From Chloroflexota bacterium (GTDB lineage Bacteria; Chloroflexota; UBA11872; VXOZ01), in assembly GCA_964291655.2 (NCBI GenBank), contig OZ219802.1:2240001-2304000 (forward strand): a DNA stretch of 64,000 bases. The letters run 5' to 3'. Made by a program: the position numbers and the translations under genes. The notes below the pieces were generated by a model. It made no database searches and was not told the DNA's origin. It was given only the letters and a program-made list of their open reading frames with translations. This document shows positions 52,823-59,459 of the stretch, in pieces (the first letter of the stretch is position 1; every line of letters begins with the position of its first letter).

Positions 52823-53439
52823 AGAAATTGCCCTCTCTTGGCGGCAACCACACTGCAGTTGGTCGCGCATCCGTTTCTCGTCACTGCACTACAAGAATAT
52901 ACCCTAGTCAGTCCAAACATACCCACACACGCGAACTCGCCTGCACGAGGGAATGGCGGGAGACTTGCGCATTGGCCCGGAGGGGCACGACATGTCGTGC
53001 CTCTGCCTCGGTTCCCAGTACCCGCACTGGAGAGACGGGAAACCCACATTCGGGCACGTCCGCGACCCCTGCCCGGGCACACGGGTTACATGTGTTCGGG
53101 GACATAGGTTACACGTTGCCCGGAGTGTGGTGCGTGCCCGCGTTGGATTGCACGCGGCGAGAAGCCGACGCGCCACGTGCGATTCACAACGCGGGAATCC
53201 CCTCTAGCTTGACGTGCGGCGTTCGTCCGTGACAAAATGCGATGCGTAGAAGAGCAATTGCACGCCCATGTAGCACAGTGCGATTGCCGTCTCTTGGCTT
53301 TACGCAGTCGCCTGCGTTACGCCTTTCCCAAAAACAACAGTACCCAAAGACAACTTCTGAATTGTAAAGTGCTCAAAGCGTTGCAAGCAGCCATTGCGCG
53401 TTTGCACACCACAGAGCAATGCCAGTGAGGAGGCGCCAG

Positions 53440-56400
53440 TTGGCCGGGTTCAAGGAAGTCAGTAGAGATCTCGACTTTCCCAGTATGGAGCATCGGATCC
53501 TCAAGTTCTGGGAGGATACCGCTGCTTTTGAGAAGCTTGTCGCGAAGAATAAAGACAATCCCCGCTGGTCTTTCATTGACGGCCCCATTACGGCCAATAA
53601 TCCCATGGGCGTCCACCACGCGTGGGGACGCACCTATAAGGACATCTATCAACGCTACAAGGCCATGCAGGGCTATGCCCAGCGCTATCAAAACGGCTTT
53701 GACTGCCAGGGGCTGTGGTTGGAAGTCGAGGTCGAACGCGACCTCGGTTTCGATTCGAAGCACGAGATCGAGGAATTCGGCCTCGACAACTTCTCCCGCG
53801 AGTGCCGCAAGCGCGTGGAACACTTCTCCTCGGTGCAGACGAACCAGTCCATCCGGCTCGGCCAGTGGATGGATTGGGACAACTCGTACTACACCATGGA
53901 CGATAGCAACATCGAGCACATCTGGTACTTCCTGAAGCGCTGCCACGAGAAGGCCTGGCTCTACAAGGGCTGGCGCTCCATGCCGTGGTGTATTCGCTGC
54001 GGCACCAGCCTTTCGCAGCATGAGCTGGTCGGCACGGACACGTACCGCGAGGTCACGCATCCGAGTATCACGTTGCGGCTGCCGGTAAAGGGACGTGACA
54101 ACGAGTACTTCATGGTGTGGACCACCACGCCGTGGACGTTGGCCGCCAACACCGCGCTGGCCGTGCATCCTGACCTCACCTACGTCGCTGCCGAAGCCGA
54201 TGGCAATACCTACTACCTCTCCAAGGGGACTCTTGAGAGCGTTGGCCGCGGCAAACTCAACGCCGTGCGCGAATTCCGAGGCGAAGAGCTGGTGGGCCTG
54301 GAATATGTCGGCCCTTGGCACGAGTTGCCCGCCCAGCAAGGCTTCTCTACCAAAGTCGTGGGGTGGGACATCGTCGGCGAGGAAGAGGGTACCGGCATCG
54401 TCCACATCGCGCCGGGCTGCGGCGCGGAAGACTATGAGCTTTCGCAGGAGCACGGGCTCCACGTTATCGTGCCCATCGACGGCGACGGCAACTACGGCGA
54501 CGGCTTCGGCCCGCTCGCCGGGCGCAATATCACCGAGACCAACGAGCCGATCTTCGCCGCCCTGGAAGAAGCCGGCATCGTCTACCGCATTGAGGACTAC
54601 ACGCACCGCTATCCCGTGTGTTGGCGCTGTGGGGAAGAGGTCGCCTTTCGTCTGGTAGAAGAGTGGTTCATCTCCGCCGAAGAGATTCGCCCACGCATGC
54701 TGGCGGAAAACCAGACCGTCGACTGGGTTCCTGAATACGGCGGGAAGCGCATGGACGACTGGCTGAATAACATGGGGGATTGGTGCATCTCGCGCAAGCG
54801 CTTCTGGGGTCTGCCGCTGCCGTTCTACCACTGCGAGGACTGCGACCACGTCACGATTGTCGGCACCGTGCAGGAGTTGGAAGACAGAGCTATCGATGCA
54901 GCCAAAGTGCGGGCGCTGCCGGAGCTACATCGTCCGTGGATCGATGAGATAACTATTCGTTGCGAGAAGTGCAACGGCGAGACGGCTCGTATCCCGGAGG
55001 TCGGTGATTGCTGGCTGGATGCCGGCATCGTGCCGTTCTCCACACTCGGCTACCTGGAAGGCAGCGCTGAGTGGGGCAAGTGGTACCCTGCTGACTTCAT
55101 CAGCGAGATGCGCGAGCAGATTCGCCTGTGGTTCTACGCGCTTGCCTTCATGAGCGTCACCCTGGAAGACGTCCGCGCTTACCGTAACGTGCTCATCTAC
55201 GAAAAAGTCAATGACGAGCATGGTAGACCAATGCACAAGAGCCACGGCAACGCCATCTGGTTCGACGACGCCGTTGAGAAGATGGGCGCTGACGTCATGC
55301 GCTGGCTGTATTGCGAAAGCAACACCCAGCAGAACTTGAACTTCGGTTACGGCGTGGCCCAAGACGTGAAGCGACGCCTGCTGCTCTTCTGGAATGTCTA
55401 TAATTTCTTCGTAACGTATGCCCGCTTGGAGGACTTCGATCCCACCAGTGTCAGTGTGCCCCTCGAAGTGCGGTCAATCCTGGACCGCTGGATCATTGCG
55501 CTGCTCCACAAGCTGGTGCGGGACGTGACCGACGACCTGGAAAAATACGACGCCTACAGCGTTTCCCGTCGTGTGAACGATTTCATCGAGCAGTTGTCCA
55601 CGTGGTACGTGCGGCGCGGCCGCCGCCGCTATTGGAAGTCCGGCCAGGACCGCGACACCCTCTCGGCATACCAGACGCTCTACGAAGTGCTGACCACCTT
55701 CACGCGCACGATTGCGCCCATCATGCCGTTCCTCAGTGAAGAGGTGTACCAGAACCTTGTCCGCGCGGTAGATAGCGATGCGCCGGAGAGCGTGCACCAC
55801 ACCGAGTGGCCGCGCTACAACGCGTCGCTGATCGATGAAGAACTCCTCGCCCACATGGAACTGGCCCAGCGTGTCGTCAGCCTCGGCCGCGCGGCACGCA
55901 GCACGAGCAAGATCAAGGTACGCCAACCTTTGCCGGAAATACTGGTGCACGTGAAAACCGCTGACGAGCAAGCGGGGCTCGAACGCTTGCAGGAGCACAT
56001 CCTCAGCGAACTGAATGTAAAGGCGCTGCGTTTCGTTGGACCGGAAGAGGAGCTGGTGACATACGAACTCAAACCGCGCTTCAAACTGCTCGGCCCCAAG
56101 TATGGCAGGCAGGTCAAGGCCATCGCGGCGGCGTTGGGCCGGAGCGACGCCCAGGCCGGCGCGCGGCTCGTTGCCCACGGCAAGCCCGTCACGGTAGAGG
56201 TTGAGGGAGAGCAAATCGAGCTCCAGCCGGAAGAAGTGGACGTGCAGGCCCGTGAGCGGGCAGACTACAGCGTGGCCACTGAAGAAGGGTACTTGGTGGC
56301 GCTCCACACGGAGATATCACTCGATCTCGAACGGGAAGGTATGGCGCGAGAACTCATCCATCACGTCCAGAACTTGCGGCGCGCGGCGAACTTCGACCTC

Positions 56401-56610
56401 TCCGATCGCATCGTGACGTACGTGGGAGTAAGCGACGGGGAGGCGGATCAAGCGAATGTGTCAGCCATGCTGGACGCCCACAGCGATGCCGTGGCCCAGG
56501 AGACGCTCTCCATGCGCGTCGAATCAACGCATGGGCCGGATGAGGCGCATCAAGAGACCGTTGACCTTAACGGCATATCTGTGAAGCTTGGTGTGGTACG
56601 TGCATCATAA
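53440..56610 (+). CDS. ileS: Isoleucine--tRNA ligase, type 2
   Basis: DGPITAN, GFDCQGL, WTTTPWTL, GTGIVHIAPG, DWCISR.RFWG, HRPWID, WYVRR.RRR, KVRQPL, type-2 C-terminus (EG.ARE..QNLR). TTG start after GAGGAGG. Confidence 0.96.
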   Translation: MAGFKEVSRDLDFPSMEHRILKFWEDTAAFEKLVAKNKDNPRWSFIDGPITANNPMGVHHAWGRTYKDIYQRYKAMQGYAQRYQNGFDCQGLWLEVEVERDLGFDSKHEIEEFGLDNFSRECRKRVEHFSSVQTNQSIRLGQWMDWDNSYYTMDDSNIEHIWYFLKRCHEKAWLYKGWRSMPWCIRCGTSLSQHELVGTDTYREVTHPSITLRLPVKGRDNEYFMVWTTTPWTLAANTALAVHPDLTYVAAEADGNTYYLSKGTLESVGRGKLNAVREFRGEELVGLEYVGPWHELPAQQGFSTKVVGWDIVGEEEGTGIVHIAPGCGAEDYELSQEHGLHVIVPIDGDGNYGDGFGPLAGRNITETNEPIFAALEEAGIVYRIEDYTHRYPVCWRCGEEVAFRLVEEWFISAEEIRPRMLAENQTVDWVPEYGGKRMDDWLNNMGDWCISRKRFWGLPLPFYHCEDCDHVTIVGTVQELEDRAIDAAKVRALPELHRPWIDEITIRCEKCNGETARIPEVGDCWLDAGIVPFSTLGYLEGSAEWGKWYPADFISEMREQIRLWFYALAFMSVTLEDVRAYRNVLIYEKVNDEHGRPMHKSHGNAIWFDDAVEKMGADVMRWLYCESNTQQNLNFGYGVAQDVKRRLLLFWNVYNFFVTYARLEDFDPTSVSVPLEVRSILDRWIIALLHKLVRDVTDDLEKYDAYSVSRRVNDFIEQLSTWYVRRGRRRYWKSGQDRDTLSAYQTLYEVLTTFTRTIAPIMPFLSEEVYQNLVRAVDSDAPESVHHTEWPRYNASLIDEELLAHMELAQRVVSLGRAARSTSKIKVRQPLPEILVHVKTADEQAGLERLQEHILSELNVKALRFVGPEEELVTYELKPRFKLLGPKYGRQVKAIAAALGRSDAQAGARLVAHGKPVTVEVEGEQIELQPEEVDVQARERADYSVATEEGYLVALHTEISLDLEREGMARELIHHVQNLRRAANFDLSDRIVTYVGVSDGEADQANVSAMLDAHSDAVAQETLSMRVESTHGPDEAHQETVDLNGISVKLGVVRAS

Positions 56611-56781: not shown

Positions 56782-57018
56782 GGAGACTTTTGCGTAACCC
56801 TAGCGGAAGCGAGAGAGTTCCCTCTCCCTCGACGGGAGAGGGCTAGGGTGAGGGTGAATCTCCTGCATTCGCTACATATGTATGCCTATTTTTAGGTGAT
56901 ATATCTTGACACCACACATGTTATGAGGCCATTGCAGCCAAGAGACCCCCTCACCCCAACCTTCTCCCCAGGGAGAGGGAGTGCCCCTGCCTGAAGGTGG
57001 GGTTATGCAAAGGTCTCC
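56782..57018. mobile_element. MITE with GGAGACTTTTGC / GCAAAGGTCTCC TIRs (IS5-like ends)
   Basis: 237 bp with two internal inverted hairpins; sits at the apex of CCCTCTCCCT..AGGGAGAGGG. Confidence 0.7.
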
Positions 57019-57119
57019 TGAGGGAGAGGGCCAGGGTGAGGGAGAGTCGGCGCGGGCCAGTCCGAATTTACGACAAAGTTACTTTATGTGACGAGTTTCA
57101 AAGAGAAAGGAAGTAGATC

Positions 57120-57581
57120 ATGGCTGAGAGTGCGCAGACGCTGCCACGAATCTTCAAGTGGTTTGGGGAGGGCAAATTCGCCGCCTCCGGCTTCCCCGAG
57201 ACTGAGGAAGAGCTATCCGCGGTGGCGGGGCAAGGCATCAAGCACATCGTCGCCGCCTCGCGCAAGGGGCCGGATACGGCGACCATCGAGCGACTCGGCA
57301 TGACCGTGGACAACTTTAGCGGCGTCAGCAGCGATGTGGCGACTCTCGATGCCGCGGTGGAGTCCCTGCACGCGGCTGCCCTGCGCGACGACAAAGCCCT
57401 CATTCACTGAGGCTCCGGTTTCGGCGGGGCCGGTACGGTCCTGGCAGGATACTTGGTGAAGTACGAAGGCTACGCTCCGGCGGACGCAGTGCAAGCGCTG
57501 CGTGACTTCCGCCCGGGCGATTTGAAAGGCGGCGAGGTGGTTGAATTCATCGCAGAGTACGCGGAGAGTCTGAACTCTTAG
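57120..57581 (+). CDS. Dual-specificity-phosphatase/PTP-fold protein with in-frame TGA at the catalytic Cys (candidate selenoprotein, 153 aa)
   Basis: FKWF..GKFAASGFP N-terminus, KALIH-TGA-GSGFGGAGTVLAGYLV, AVQALRDFRPG C-terminus. The frame is open to TAG 57579..57581; RBS AAGGA; terminator follows. Confidence 0.7.
57420..57449 (+). promoter_or_regulatory. Candidate bacterial SECIS hairpin
   Basis: CGGGGCCG-GTA-CGGTCCTG stem; GU-starting apical loop 22 nt after the UGA (manual fold). Confidence 0.45.
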
Positions 57582-57608
57582 GTGATCTACGCGCCCAATT
57601 TGAGAAGG

Positions 57609-57645
57609 AGAGAAGCCCGCTACTCTGCATATAGCGGGCTTCTCT
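57609..57645. terminator. Hairpin between convergent genes (probable bidirectional terminator)
   Basis: AGAGAAGCCCGCTA-N9-TAGCGGGCTTCTCT. Confidence 0.65.
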
Positions 57646-57703
57646 CATGAAATCTGTTCGACCGATTTTGGTTAGTATAGGGCACATGTGTGAAGGACTC
57701 GCC

Positions 57704-57979
57704 CTATCTCGGAATGAGTTCCAGTGCCGCCAGCACACCTGCCAAGGCTACAAACAGCAGCACAAGTTGAATCGTCAATTGGTTAAAGCGTTTCTCCAAT
57801 TGGCTAAAGCGCTTCTCAATCCGCAACTCCAGTGCTTGCAGTTCCGTCCTCAAGCCTGCCTTCGTTACGAGTTCACCGTGCTCCGCACTTACTAGGCCAA
57901 CAAGCACTTCAGCTTGGGCCTCTTCGAAGCCGGCCCCCGTAAGATTCTTCACTGCCTTGTGGGTGTCAAGCACTGCCAT
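57704..57979 (-). CDS. Small coiled-coil protein with C-terminal TM (DUF1640/CCDC90-like)
   Basis: DTHKAVK.L..AGF.E.QAE, LVTK, heptad region, C-terminal hydrophobic helix. Confidence 0.75.
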   Translation of the reverse strand: MAVLDTHKAVKNLTGAGFEEAQAEVLVGLVSAEHGELVTKAGLRTELQALELRIEKRFSQLEKRFNQLTIQLVLLFVALAGVLAALELIPR

Positions 57980-58106: not shown

Positions 58107-59459
58107 TCAGTCACTCGGCACATCGGGATTGGGCTCCGGCCGGATGTGCTGCGCGAGAAACGCCACGAGTTCCCCAACCGGCACGCGTTCCTGCTCCATG
58201 CTGTCGCGGTGGCGCACGGTCACCGTGTTGTCGTCTTTGGTATCAAAGTCCACGGTAATGCCGAACGGCGTGCCGACCTCATCCTGCCGCCGGTAGCGGC
58301 GGCCGATGCTGCCGCTCTCGTCGTAGAAGACGTCCCAGTGCAATTGCAGCTCCGCCACGATCTCTTTGGCGATGTCCGGCAGCCCGCCCTTCTTCACCAG
58401 CGGCAAAATCGCCGCCTTGATAGGCGCGAGATAGGGATGGAACCGCAGTACAACCCGTGAATCACCCTTGGCGTCAACGTCCTGGTCGTAGGCGTCGAGC
58501 AGGAACGTAAGGAGCGCGCGATCAGCCCCGGCGGCGGGCTCGATGACGTAGGGGGAGACGTGCTCCTTCTGCTGTTCATCATAGAAGGTAAGGTCTTGTC
58601 CGGTGGCCTTGCTGTGACTGCGCAGGTCGTAGTCGGTGCGGTTGGAAATGCCTTCCAACTCACCCCAGCCGAACGGAAACTGATACTCGATGTCCCAGCA
58701 GTATTTGGCGTAGAATGCCAGCTCGTCATCTCCGTGCTGGCGCAAGCGCAGGTTCTCCTCTTTCACCCCGTAGGCGACGTACCATTGGCGCCGCGCTTCC
58801 AGCCAGTAGGCGTGCCAGTGGTCGTCGGTGCCCGGCTCGCAGAAGAACTCCAGCTCCATCTGCTCGAATTCACGCTGGCGGAAAATGAAGTTGCCAGTGG
58901 TTATCTCGTTGCGGTATGACTTGCCGATCTGGGCAATGCCGAAGGGCAGCCGCTGCCGCGACGAATTAAGCACGTTCTTGAAGTTGACGAACATGCCCTG
59001 CGCGGTTTCCGGACGCATGAAGGCAACGGCAGAGTCATCCTCCACAGGACCGACGTGCGTCTTGAACATGGTGAGGAAGCGGCGTGGGTCCGTGAACTCG
59101 CCGCCGCAATTCGGGCACGAGTCACCTTCGAGATGATCGACACGGAAGCGCTGGTGGCAACTCGTACATTCCACCAAGGTGTCGGCGAAGTGGGAGGCGT
59201 GGCCAGTGGTCTGCCACACGCTGGGGTTCATGATGACCCCGGTCTCCACGCCGACGACGTTCTCGCGGGTGCGCACGGTATTGTGCCACCACGCTTCGCG
59301 CACGTTGCGTTTCAAGGCGATGCCCAGTGGCCCGTAGTCCCAAAAGCTCTCGAAGCCGCCGTAGATCTCACTGGAGGGATACACGAATCCCCGGCGCTTG
59401 CATAGGCTTACAATCTCTTCCATGGTGTCGGATTTCTTTGCCAACGTGATTCCCTTCAC
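58107..59459 (-). CDS. glyQS: Glycine--tRNA ligase (alpha2 type)
   Basis: LCKRRGF, DYGPLG, RPETAQG, RNEIT..FIFR.REFEQME, ELEGI..R, IEP, SIGRRYRRQDEVGTP. Confidence 0.96.
   Translation of the reverse strand: MKGITLAKKSDTMEEIVSLCKRRGFVYPSSEIYGGFESFWDYGPLGIALKRNVREAWWHNTVRTRENVVGVETGVIMNPSVWQTTGHASHFADTLVECTSCHQRFRVDHLEGDSCPNCGGEFTDPRRFLTMFKTHVGPVEDDSAVAFMRPETAQGMFVNFKNVLNSSRQRLPFGIAQIGKSYRNEITTGNFIFRQREFEQMELEFFCEPGTDDHWHAYWLEARRQWYVAYGVKEENLRLRQHGDDELAFYAKYCWDIEYQFPFGWGELEGISNRTDYDLRSHSKATGQDLTFYDEQQKEHVSPYVIEPAAGADRALLTFLLDAYDQDVDAKGDSRVVLRFHPYLAPIKAAILPLVKKGGLPDIAKEIVAELQLHWDVFYDESGSIGRRYRRQDEVGTPFGITVDFDTKDDNTVTVRHRDSMEQERVPVGELVAFLAQHIRPEPNPDVPSD

What the first reader, a model, noticed from the sequence alone, without database searches (positions are those of the whole stretch)
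57120..57581. Hidden candidate selenoprotein: dual-specificity-phosphatase fold with UGA at the catalytic cysteine
Seen: the ORF track stops at TGA 57408..57410, but the same frame continues 56 more codons to TAG 57579..57581 (..DDKALIH-UGA-GSGFGGAGTVLAGYLVKYEGYAPADAVQALRDFRPGDLKGGEVVEFIAEYAESLNS). An RBS precedes the gene and a terminator hairpin follows the TAG. Established: PTP/DSP enzymes use hydrophobic-H-C-x5-R followed by a helix (..YL) and an A..vR..RP element. Both halves match this pattern and the UGA falls exactly on the nucleophilic Cys, the typical signature of Sec recoding. Inference: a 153-aa selenoprotein that standard pipelines would miss. I do not recognise this as a described selenoprotein family but cannot exclude that it is.
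Basis: partly seen in the sequence, partly recalled or inferred. Interest (0 to 1): 0.92.

Follow-up and report, generated by a model that had tools for sequence, protein, structure and literature searches.

The report
Hidden selenoprotein with phosphatase fold
This is very probably a real, unannotated selenocysteine-containing protein built on a tyrosine/dual-specificity phosphatase fold, found in sponge-associated Chloroflexota, and its active site has lost the residues a phosphatase needs, so it probably does some other chemistry.

Summary
ATG 57120, in-frame TGA 57408-57410 and TAG 57579-57581 give a 153-aa protein.

The TGA sits at the same column in 26 of 26 orthologues from two Chloroflexota genera and in one further metagenome lineage. 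Four more database clusters are cut off at exactly that codon.

The part after the TGA is under purifying selection, with dN/dS 0.13 and 0.20. A hairpin 14 nt after the UGA meets all four rules of the published bacterial SECIS model. Its synonymous sites are frozen and it has one compensatory pair.

The genome has selA, selB, tRNA-Sec and a Sec-containing selD.

The fold is DUSP23/VHZ-like, with Sec at the nucleophile position.

The P-loop reads H-U-G-S-G-F-G-G-A-G-T, so the HCx5R arginine is glycine in every Sec form. The family-invariant glutamine is lost too, and the general-acid aspartate is not kept. It is therefore not simply a phosphatase with Sec in place of Cys.

No such family appears in a 2026 inventory of 119 prokaryotic selenoprotein families. 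The function is inferred, not shown.

The parts
57105..57113 (+). Ribosome-binding site GAAAGGAAG, 6 nt before the ATG
   Evidence: Read directly from the sequence. A GAAAGGAAG-like purine run lies before the start in the genus-g1 orthologues, and GGAAGGGAG in genus g5 (20-nt upstream strings printed).
57120..57581 (+). Full coding sequence of the selenoprotein: 153 codons including Sec97, plus the TAG stop
   Evidence: Pfam PTP-SAK PF22784 scores 53.1 bits against a cut-off of 27. Orthologues cover residues 1-153 with one TGA inside.
57408..57410 (+). UGA read as selenocysteine (U97), at the position of the PTP/DSP nucleophilic Cys
   Evidence: TGA is in this alignment column in 26 of 26 orthologues and in L106. 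It aligns to the Cys of HCxxGxGR in the solved DUSP23-type structures 25xa, 2img and 4erc. In the AF2 model it lies at the end of strand 93-97, before helix 102-116.
57405..57437 (+). Remodelled P-loop H-U-G-S-G-F-G-G-A-G-T, with Gly103 (57426-57428) where the family has its invariant Arg
   Evidence: Position 103 is G in 10 of 10 full-length Sec rows and R in 75 of 75 Cys rows. Position 104 is A in 10 of 10 Sec rows and T in 71 of 75 Cys rows.
57424..57445 (+). SECIS-type hairpin. The upper stem pairs 57426-57432 with 57436-57442 (7 bp), the loop is GUA at 57433-57435, G57443 is bulged, and two more pairs are 57425-57444 and 57424-57445.
   Evidence: RNAalifold on 24 distinct sequences: no predicted pair is broken, and one pair is C-G in 15 and A-U in 9. 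Free energy is -9.7 to -12.9 kcal/mol. Codons 104-107 are identical in 26 of 26 sequences, and codons 103-110 are a single codon in 17 of 17 g1 sequences. The spacing of 22 nt, the loop and the stem all fit the published bSECIS rules.
57608..57646 (.). Perfect 15-bp hairpin after the TAG, between this gene and the convergent small ORF 57704-57979 (-). It is probably a two-way terminator.
   Evidence: -29.7 kcal/mol, z = -4.18. Rfam matched only the terminator part of Thr_leader here, below the gathering score. The hairpin lies after the TAG, not after the TGA.

Best explanation
The gene at 57120-57581 encodes a genuine 153-aa selenoprotein. During translation the UGA at 57408-57410 is read as selenocysteine, directed by a SelB-type SECIS hairpin that starts 14 nt downstream, inside the coding sequence.

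The protein has the DUSP23/VHZ-type Cys-based phosphatase fold, and the Sec sits exactly where the nucleophilic Cys sits, at the start of the strand-loop-helix P-loop.

The Sec forms are one diverged clade with no Cys-containing members found. In that clade the residues that make the fold a phosphatase are replaced: the P-loop Arg becomes Gly, the next Thr becomes Ala, the invariant Gln becomes Val, the Ser of RPGS becomes Asp, and the general-acid Asp is not kept.

I therefore infer that the selenolate, held in a glycine-rich anion hole at a helix N-terminus, does chemistry other than classical phosphoester hydrolysis. The most likely kind is redox or group-transfer chemistry that uses an external reductant, because no conserved second Cys exists.

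What is shown: the gene, the conserved UGA, the hairpin, the Sec machinery, the fold, and the lost residues. What is inferred: actual Sec insertion (about 0.9) and a non-phosphatase function (about 0.55-0.6). The confidence figure given for this explanation (0.8) is for the statement as a whole, weighted towards its first part, that this is a real selenoprotein with this fold and a remodelled site.
For: Conservation of the UGA.
- There is one TGA at the same column in 17 of 17 genus-g1 genomes (own included) and 9 of 9 genus-g5 genomes, at 43-49% protein identity between the genera.
- A third lineage, metagenome contig L106, has the same.
- Six representatives of 50%-identity clusters end exactly at ...L[IVL]H before this codon.
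- Together these are seven lineages that share only 35-54% identity in the N-terminal half.

Translation continues past the TGA.
- dN/dS downstream is 0.127 (g1, 136 pairs) and 0.195 (g5, 36 pairs). Upstream it is 0.112 and 0.208.
- Invariant residues begin directly after the UGA, before any possible restart codon.

The SECIS.
- The hairpin meets all four published rules: loop of 3-9 nt, stem of 4-16 bp, G followed by G or U at the loop start, spacing of 16-37 nt, and free energy of -7.5 kcal/mol or lower (rules; values).
- Synonymous sites there are frozen, and dS downstream is lower than upstream in g1, 0.57 against 0.91.
- One pair is compensatory, C-G in 15 sequences and A-U in 9.
- The genome's own Sec-containing selD has a hairpin with the same G-GUA-C apex.

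The Sec machinery.
- selA scores 562 bits, selB 357 bits, selD 383 bits (with one in-frame TGA) and tRNA-Sec 67 bits, all over their cut-offs.
- selB was found in 25 of the 26 genomes that carry the TGA form. The one miss, G014, is 69% complete.

TGA is otherwise a normal stop. It ends 601 of 1884 long frames, and several orthologues end in TGA themselves.

The TGA is not an error. DNA contigs of two other studies span the gene, and contigs of two RNA libraries from a relative about 91% identical bridge the TGA. None shows a change at 57408-57410.

The fold. The AF2 model has pLDDT 85.2 and pTM 0.83. Foldseek's best hits are DUSP23 2img and VHZ 4erc, with TM 0.81-0.84.

The lost catalytic residues.
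- Arg: 75 of 75 Cys rows, against Gly in 10 of 10 Sec rows.
- Gln: 75 of 75 Cys rows, against Val in 9 and Phe in 1 of 10 Sec rows.
- Ser of RPGS: 69 of 75 Cys rows, against Asp in 10 of 10 Sec rows.
- Arg at C+6 is also present in 23 of 24 Cys-homologue loci; the motif search found nothing in the other one.
- It is present in every full-length protein among the 148 top representatives checked.

The tree puts the 14 Sec rows on one side of a branch with SH-aLRT 100 and a length of 1.81.
Against: - No experiment shows selenium in this protein. Everything here is comparative.
- Rfam has no family that matched the hairpin, so the SECIS call rests on a generic model and on conservation.
- Only one base pair shows a two-sided change. 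The rest of the stem is invariant, and an invariant stem cannot separate RNA constraint from codon or protein constraint. The frozen third positions are what speak for RNA constraint.
- The RNA-library contigs come from a relative, and they may derive from DNA in the library.
- The functional inference is negative evidence only. Residues are lost and no substrate is identified.
- Gene neighbourhood gives no clue, because it differs in all three lineages seen.
- An Asp is conserved four residues after the lost general-acid position (D72, 12 of 14 Sec rows), and Lys13 is conserved in 13 of 14. These could partly replace the lost residues, so some phosphatase activity is not excluded.
- The tree used the quick method, and the P-loop columns were not removed from it.
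Confidence: 0.8

Rival explanations
1. It is a conventional dual-specificity or tyrosine phosphatase in which Sec simply replaces the nucleophilic Cys. The selenolate attacks the phosphoester and forms a selenophosphoryl intermediate.
For: The fold and the position of Sec are those of DUSP23/VHZ. H96, the glycines of the P-loop and the two Args of the xxR..R motif (R128, R131) are kept. A conserved D72 and K13 might stand in for the lost residues.
Against: The Arg of CX5R is present in 75 of 75 Cys rows and is Gly in 10 of 10 Sec rows. The invariant Gln (75 of 75) is gone, and the canonical general-acid Asp is not kept. From established PTP enzymology (recalled, not tested here), loss of the P-loop Arg alone lowers catalysis by orders of magnitude. 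Genus g5 keeps a separate canonical Cys paralogue with all these residues, which fits a split of functions.
Confidence: 0.2
2. The UGA is read through, but by an ordinary tRNA that inserts Trp, Cys, Arg or Gly by near-cognate decoding. Selenocysteine is not inserted, and the hairpin only promotes read-through.
For: Sequence analysis cannot tell which residue is inserted. The downstream half is clearly translated.
Against: - The full Sec machinery is present and is used by selD in the same genome.
- The hairpin fits the SelB-type SECIS model in loop, spacing and energy, and it shares its apex with the selD hairpin.
- The codon lies exactly on the nucleophilic Cys position, the typical place for Sec.
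- No lineage has changed the TGA to a sense codon in 27 sequences with DNA evidence.
Confidence: 0.04
3. The TGA is a true stop. The product is the 96-aa N-terminal fragment, either as a decayed pseudogene or as a truncated protein, and the downstream frame is open by chance or is a leftover.
For: All gene callers stop there. TGA is a common stop in this genome.
Against: - The downstream 56 codons are as constrained as the upstream ones, with dN/dS 0.13 and 0.20.
- They are kept open in 27 sequences down to 43% identity.
- They complete the fold.
- The hairpin that looks like a terminator follows the TAG, not the TGA.
- A 96-aa fragment would end in the middle of the domain, just before the P-loop.
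Confidence: 0.03
4. The TGA is a sequencing or assembly error in a normal TGC/TGT codon.
For: None found.
Against: The same TGA is in 26 genomes, in one independent metagenome contig, and in contigs of four runs from three studies.
Confidence: 0

Closest known systems
DUSP23 / VHZ-type atypical dual-specificity phosphatases and their bacterial and archaeal relatives (PDB 25xa, 2img, 4erc, Tk-PTP 5z5a, SsoPTP 2i6i; Pfam PTP-SAK PF22784 and DSPc PF00782)
   Same: They share the same small single-domain fold (Foldseek TM 0.75-0.84) and similar sequence (profile E 2e-20 to 2e-18). The N-terminal F-x-W strand, His before the nucleophile, the G-x-G-x-x-G loop, the following helix and the R..R motif are all shared.
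   Different: - The nucleophile is Sec, not Cys.
- The P-loop Arg is Gly and the next Thr is Ala.
- The invariant Gln is Val, and the Ser of RPGS is Asp.
- The general-acid Asp is not kept.
- Ser, Asp or Thr in the first strand is Lys.
- The Sec forms sit on a long separate branch.
Bacterial selenoproteins in general, recoded through SelB and a SECIS inside the coding sequence (for example SelD and formate dehydrogenase)
   Same: An in-frame UGA is followed at the right distance by a small-loop hairpin with G-U at the loop start. Sec lies at the position of a catalytic Cys of homologues. The genome carries selA, selB, selC and selD.
   Different: The fold does not occur among the 119 families and subfamilies listed in the 2026 inventory. 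Most of those are thioredoxin-like or carry UxxC/CxxU motifs. Here there is no partner Cys. No Cys-containing member of the same clade was found, whereas the review says nearly all selenoproteins have Cys homologues with the same site.
Reductases built on phosphatase-type P-loop folds: LMW-PTP-type ArsC and Cdc25/rhodanese-type Acr2, and the rhodanese-like and arsenate-reductase selenoproteins of the inventory
   Same: They are precedents for a phosphatase-type anion-binding loop with a Cys or Sec nucleophile being used for redox or transfer chemistry. The inventory lists rhodanese-like and arsenate-reductase selenoproteins. That ArsC and Acr2 derive from phosphatase folds is recalled knowledge.
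   Different: Those enzymes belong to other folds and families (TIGR00014 and PF00581 in the inventory). As far as I recall they keep the loop Arg and use extra Cys residues. None of this applies here. This is an analogy only and no membership is claimed.

Membership tests
Bacterial selenoprotein (SelB/SECIS-dependent UGA recoding) | An in-frame UGA conserved among orthologues, not strain-specific | tested here: met
   TGA is in the same column in 26 of 26 orthologues, in L106 and in contigs of other studies.
Bacterial selenoprotein (SelB/SECIS-dependent UGA recoding) | The sequence downstream of the UGA is translated, shown by purifying selection and conserved residues | tested here: met
   dN/dS downstream is 0.127 and 0.195, against 0.112 and 0.208 upstream. 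There are 22 invariant residues in the 56-aa tail.
Bacterial selenoprotein (SelB/SECIS-dependent UGA recoding) | A bSECIS hairpin: loop of 3-9 nt, upper stem of 4-16 bp, G in the first two loop positions, 16-37 nt from the UGA, free energy of -7.5 kcal/mol or lower (rules quoted from PMC13188914) | tested here: met
   The loop is GUA, the stem is 7 bp with 2 more pairs beyond a bulge, 22 nt lie between the UGA and the loop, and the energy is -9.7 to -12.9 kcal/mol. Synonymous sites are frozen and there is one compensatory pair.
Bacterial selenoprotein (SelB/SECIS-dependent UGA recoding) | selA, selB, selD and tRNA-Sec are in the genome | tested here: met
   All four score over their family cut-offs. 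selB is in 25 of the 26 carrier genomes.
Bacterial selenoprotein (SelB/SECIS-dependent UGA recoding) | The UGA aligns with Cys in homologues | tested here: met
   It aligns with the Cys of HCxxGxGR in PDB relatives and in 75 of 75 Cys rows. These are distant homologues only; no Cys orthologue of the clade was found.
Bacterial selenoprotein (SelB/SECIS-dependent UGA recoding) | Selenium is actually incorporated (75Se labelling or mass spectrometry) | not testable with these tools
   This needs an experiment.
Cys-based PTP / dual-specificity phosphatase superfamily (DUSP23-like; Pfam PF22784, PF00782) | A family HMM match over the curated cut-off | tested here: met
   PF22784 scores 53.1 bits against 27. 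PF22785 scores 27.4 against 27. PF00782 scores 33.4 against 33.5, just under the cut-off. U was read as C.
Cys-based PTP / dual-specificity phosphatase superfamily (DUSP23-like; Pfam PF22784, PF00782) | The PTP/DSP fold, with the nucleophile at the strand-loop-helix junction | tested here: met
   The AF2 model has pLDDT 85.2. Foldseek gives TM 0.81-0.84 to 2img and 4erc.
Cys-based PTP / dual-specificity phosphatase superfamily (DUSP23-like; Pfam PF22784, PF00782) | The signature H-C-x5-R: Arg six residues after the nucleophile | tested here: not met
   It is Gly in 10 of 10 full-length Sec rows and Arg in 75 of 75 Cys rows.
Cys-based PTP / dual-specificity phosphatase superfamily (DUSP23-like; Pfam PF22784, PF00782) | A general-acid Asp in the loop before the P-loop (x-P-x-x-D-F type) | tested here: not met
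   The HMM alignments put Gly68 opposite the Asp of 25xa and 2img. MAFFT places a gap there. Position 68 is G in 11, N in 2 and D in 1 of 14 Sec rows. An Asp four residues later (D72) is conserved and might substitute.
Cys-based PTP / dual-specificity phosphatase superfamily (DUSP23-like; Pfam PF22784, PF00782) | The invariant Gln of the RPGS-I-E-T-x-E-Q segment of this subfamily | tested here: not met
   Gln is in 75 of 75 Cys rows. The Sec rows have Val in 9 and Phe in 1 of 10.
Any of the described prokaryotic selenoprotein families | A match to a curated selenoprotein model, or a listing in the inventory | tested here: not met
   The NCBIfam scan gave only one hit, at 14.8 bits against a cut-off of 505. 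The 2026 inventory text holds no 'phosphatase', 'PTP', PF22784 or PF00782, and I read part 1 of its table. Supplements could not be seen.

The most novel reading that the evidence does not exclude
This is the first natural selenoenzyme of the PTP superfamily. It belongs to an obligate-Sec clade with no Cys members. The clade arose from a DUSP23-like phosphatase by duplication, gave up the Arg, Asp and Gln phosphatase residues, and now uses a lone selenolate in a glycine-rich anion hole for a new reaction. One candidate is a peroxide or other oxidant-reducing cycle through a selenenic acid or selenenylamide. Another is transfer of a non-phosphate group. Sponge-associated Chloroflexota have kept it across genera.
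Probability: 0.5. Interest if true: 0.85.

Novelty: new variant of a known kind. Interest (0 to 1): 0.75.

Why it matters
Selenocysteine is almost always found in thioredoxin-like or metal-centre redox enzymes. A natural Sec at the nucleophile position of a tyrosine/dual-specificity phosphatase fold has not been described in the literature I could search.

It would add a new fold to the selenoproteome. It would also give enzymologists a natural experiment on what selenium does in a P-loop active site, all the more because the arginine, glutamine and general acid were discarded along with the change to Sec.

It is also a practical example of annotation failure. Every public copy found is a 86-114 aa truncated 'hypothetical protein'.

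The clade has no Cys members, so search methods that rely on Cys/Sec pairs among close homologues would tend to rank it low.

Tried and rejected
**Gene context as a clue to function.** The window has IleRS, a small coiled-coil ORF, a class II aminoacyl-tRNA synthetase, RecO, CNNM/CorC and GlmU. Genus g5 has DUF2961, a GFO/IDH/MocA oxidoreductase, GmrSD and an MFS transporter. L106 has patatin and DUF805. Nothing is shared, so context gives no clue.

**A PRL-CNNM type link.** Foldseek rank 49 is PRL-1 bound to a CNNM domain, and a CNNM gene lies 3 kb away. I rejected the link because the neighbourhood is not kept in g5 or L106.

**Rfam.** No SECIS family matched. Only the terminator hairpin hit the terminator part of Thr_leader, below the gathering score.

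**A genome scan for TGA followed by a GGUA-apex hairpin with open frames on both sides.** It gave 12 places, among them this gene and selD. The six others I translated looked like non-coding frames, so no further selenoprotein was found this way.

**The search for related loci with the six N-terminal fragments (A2).** It failed for lack of a conserved stretch. I then searched with the C-terminal alignment A3. For those four, the TGA is inferred from truncation at ...LVH only.

**Phylum sample.** 401 genomes were searched and the TGA form appeared only in g1. Genus g5 was not in that sample, so the sample is sparse.

**Promoter scan.** Nothing was found on the + strand upstream.

**Sequencing runs.** The holders include sponge metagenomes. 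Only four runs were laid, and their contigs cannot show expression level or transcript ends.

**The Pfam hit to 'Tc-R-P, polymorphic toxin system DSP-PTPase'.** It scores 27.4 bits against a cut-off of 27. This is a domain-family resemblance only. Nothing else suggests a toxin.

**Literature.** Six searches and text searches in three papers found no PTP- or DSP-fold selenoprotein. Of PMC2398784 and PMC12013277 I saw only the passages returned. Of PMC13188914 I saw the passages and part 1 of section 7. Supplements were closed and may hold candidate lists that I could not check.
Full report
**The observation.**
A purine-rich ribosome-binding site, GAAAGGAAG, lies at 57105-57113. ATG is at 57120, TGA at 57408-57410, and the same frame stays open to TAG at 57579-57581. 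Reading TGA as U gives a 153-aa protein with U97 inside ...ALIH-U-GSGFGGAGT.... Plain ORF finding sees only the 96-aa piece. A perfect 15-bp hairpin follows the TAG at 57608-57646, with -29.7 kcal/mol and z = -4.18. Rfam matched it only to the terminator part of a leader family. The strict terminator scan did not list it because there is no T run.

**Family and fold.**
With C standing for U, the protein matches Pfam PTP-SAK (PF22784) at 53.1 bits against a cut-off of 27, and DSPc at 33.4 bits against 33.5. No NCBIfam model matches meaningfully. A profile of nine orthologues finds solved structures of a bacterial 'dual specificity protein phosphatase family protein' (25xa, E 2e-20) and of human DUSP23/VHZ (2img and 4erc, E 2e-18). 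U97 aligns to their catalytic Cys. An AlphaFold2 model has pLDDT 85.2 and pTM 0.83. It puts U97 at the end of strand 93-97, just before helix 102-116. Foldseek ranks DUSP23, VHZ, Tk-PTP, ShufPTP and SsoPTP first, with TM 0.72-0.84.

**Is the TGA real and conserved?**
- The window lies in a 3.47-Mb genome (G000). Record titles of related loci name uncultured Chloroflexota MAGs.
- A six-frame search of 61 related genomes found 26 orthologues with exactly one TGA inside the match. These are 17 of 17 genomes in genus g1 (own included, 83-99% identity) and 9 of 9 in genus g5 of another family (45-49%).
- The whole class as held, 98 genomes, gave the same 26 and no other TGA form.
- A sample of 401 genomes of the phylum gave TGA forms only in g1. 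Genus g5 was not in that sample.
- After alignment, all 26 have TGA in one column.
- A metagenome scan with the C-terminal part found a third lineage, L106, with H-U-G-S-G-H-G-G-A-G-T.
- A profile search of 1.84 billion representatives returned six mutually distant truncated proteins that end exactly at ...L[IVL]H: P0012, P0030, P0032, P0034, P0036 and P0157. With L106 this makes seven lineages at 35-54% identity in the N-terminal half. For four of them I saw no DNA.
- Contigs of DNA runs from two other studies span the gene, and contigs of two RNA libraries from a relative about 91% identical bridge the TGA. None shows a difference at 57408-57410. Those RNA-library contigs may still derive from DNA.

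**Is the downstream half translated?**
Nei-Gojobori dN/dS downstream of the TGA is 0.127 in g1 (136 pairs) and 0.195 in g5 (36 pairs). Upstream it is 0.112 and 0.208. Invariant residues start directly after the TGA, before any restart codon. TGA is otherwise a normal stop: it ends 601 of 1884 stop-to-stop frames of 300 or more codons. Six g1 orthologues end in TGA themselves.

**The recoding signal.**
- RNAalifold on 24 distinct sequences predicts a hairpin at 57424-57445. It has a 7-bp upper stem, a GUA loop, a one-base bulge and two more pairs. No pair is broken. One pair is C-G in 15 sequences and A-U in 9, and another is G-U in 16 and G-C in 8.
- Its energy is -9.7 to -12.9 kcal/mol, and 22 nt separate the UGA from the loop.
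- These values meet the four constraints of the bacterial SECIS model as quoted in a 2026 review: loop 3-9 nt, stem 4-16 bp, G in the first two loop positions, spacing 16-37 nt, and energy of -7.5 kcal/mol or lower.
- The codons GGG GCC GGT ACG are identical in 26 of 26 sequences. Codons 103-110 are each a single codon in 17 of 17 g1 sequences, while neighbouring Gly codons use three or four synonyms. In g1, dS is 0.57 downstream against 0.91 upstream.
- The genome's selD has its own in-frame TGA (...SCAG-U-AGK...) followed by a hairpin with the same G-GUA-C apex.

**The Sec machinery.**
selA (562 bits), selB (357 bits), selD (383 bits) and tRNA-Sec (67 bits) are all over their cut-offs in G000. 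selB is over its cut-off in 83 of the 98 genomes of the class and was found in 25 of the 26 carriers. The one miss is 69% complete.

- The P-loop is not HCx5R. Six residues after U97 stands Gly103 (GGG).
- All Cys homologues examined have Arg there. This holds for 23 of 24 loci from the class, the phylum and an Acidobacteriota contig; the motif search found nothing in the other one, and three loci repeat the same places. It also holds for every full-length protein among the 148 top representatives, by motif count and by reading the seven that the pattern missed.
- In one alignment of 14 Sec rows and 75 Cys rows, position 103 is G in 10 of 10 Sec rows and R in 75 of 75 Cys rows. Position 104 is A 10/10 against T 71/75. 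Position 134 is D 10/10 against S 69/75. Position 137 is G 10/10 against T 50/75. Position 140 is V 9/10 against Q 75/75. Position 13 is K 13/14 against S, D or T in 60 of 75.
- The general-acid Asp of the x-P-x-x-D-F loop aligns with Gly68 in the HMM alignments or falls in a gap in MAFFT. An Asp four residues later (D72) is kept in 12 of 14 Sec rows.
- No Cys is conserved anywhere in the Sec forms.
- Genus g5 also carries a separate canonical paralogue with P-V-E-D-F, HCAAGLGRTGT and RPGSVETxEQ. In G000, only the Sec form was found with this query.

**Evolution.**
In a quick IQ-TREE of 89 rows, the 14 Sec rows lie on one side of a branch with SH-aLRT 100 and a length of 1.81 changes per column. 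The method is quick and the P-loop columns were left in. One Cys row (L086) comes from a genome flagged as unpublished. No full-length Cys protein with the Arg-less loop turned up among the representatives, so the clade appears to be Sec-only.

**Mechanism.**
Shown: a conserved UGA at the nucleophile position, a SECIS-type hairpin, the Sec machinery, translation of the tail, the DUSP23-like fold, and loss of the Arg, Gln and general-acid set.

Inferred: SelB brings Sec-tRNA to the UGA, and the protein carries a selenolate at the N-terminus of helix 102-116 in a loop made almost entirely of glycines.

From established PTP enzymology (recalled, not tested here), the Arg binds the phosphate and stabilises the transition state, the Asp protonates the leaving group, and the Gln positions the hydrolytic water. 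With all three gone in every lineage, I think a non-phosphatase reaction is more likely (about 0.55-0.6) than a classical one (about 0.2). A lone Sec with no partner Cys points to an external reductant or acceptor, as in peroxidase-like or transferase-like cycles. The substrate is unknown. The three lineages have three unrelated gene neighbourhoods.

**Comparison with what is known.**
The closest proteins are DUSP23/VHZ-type phosphatases. The recoding works as in any bacterial selenoprotein. A 2026 review that compiles 119 prokaryotic selenoprotein families and subfamilies has no 'phosphatase', 'PTP', PF22784 or PF00782 anywhere in its text, and I read the first part of its table. The deep-Sep paper has no 'phosphatase' in its main text. 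The GOS paper mentions only a PP2C fusion to a peroxiredoxin. Six library searches gave nothing relevant. Supplements were closed. All public protein copies found are truncated and unnamed or 'hypothetical'.

**Verdict.**
This is a real feature. I put the odds of a genuine selenoprotein at about 0.9. It is a new selenoprotein family on a fold not yet known to carry Sec, with a remodelled active site, so I class it as a new variant of a known kind. The recoding mechanism itself is ordinary.

Noticed in passing
window 56943-57045 (intergenic, upstream of the gene): A G/C-rich element of about 90-100 nt with inverted-repeat character is present in many copies. There were 141 BLAST hits in the genome, with up to about 90 covering one part of it, at 89-94% identity. 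In metagenome contigs this stretch has a depth of 100-350, against 2-7 for the gene. It looks like a REP- or MITE-type repeat.
   Followed up: partly
G000:C2:2457313-2458242 (-), locus L013, outside the window: selD of this genome is itself a selenoprotein, with one in-frame TGA in ...SCAG-U-AGK.... A downstream hairpin has an apex G-GUA-C that matches the apex of the hairpin in the gene studied.
   Followed up: partly
L124 (G050:C1:1183000-1189500) and L125 (G020:C1:2347500-2354000): Genus g5 genomes carry, besides the Sec form, a canonical Cys paralogue with the Asp, Arg and Gln intact. In G000, only the Sec form was found with this query.
   Followed up: partly
loci L034, L035, L036, L040, L041, L042: In six g1 orthologues the gene's true stop codon is also TGA, a few codons after the last conserved residue. 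In these genes one TGA is read through and a second one terminates.
   Followed up: no
window 57704-57979 (-): A convergent 91-codon ORF has a weak, sub-threshold Pfam hit to CCDC90-like, 23.1 bits against a cut-off of 33.5. It shares the hairpin at 57608-57646 with the selenoprotein gene.
   Followed up: no
window 53419-56610 (+) and 58107-59459 (-): The gene lies between an isoleucyl-type class I tRNA synthetase with a DUF5915 tail and a class II aminoacyl-tRNA synthetase. RecO, a CNNM/CorC transporter and a GlmU-like gene follow. These are housekeeping genes, and the context is not shared with genus g5.
   Followed up: yes
runs listed: Several of the runs that hold this stretch or close relatives are labelled sponge metagenome, including the two RNA libraries. 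Only four runs were laid, so the habitat is a lead and not a finding.
   Followed up: partly
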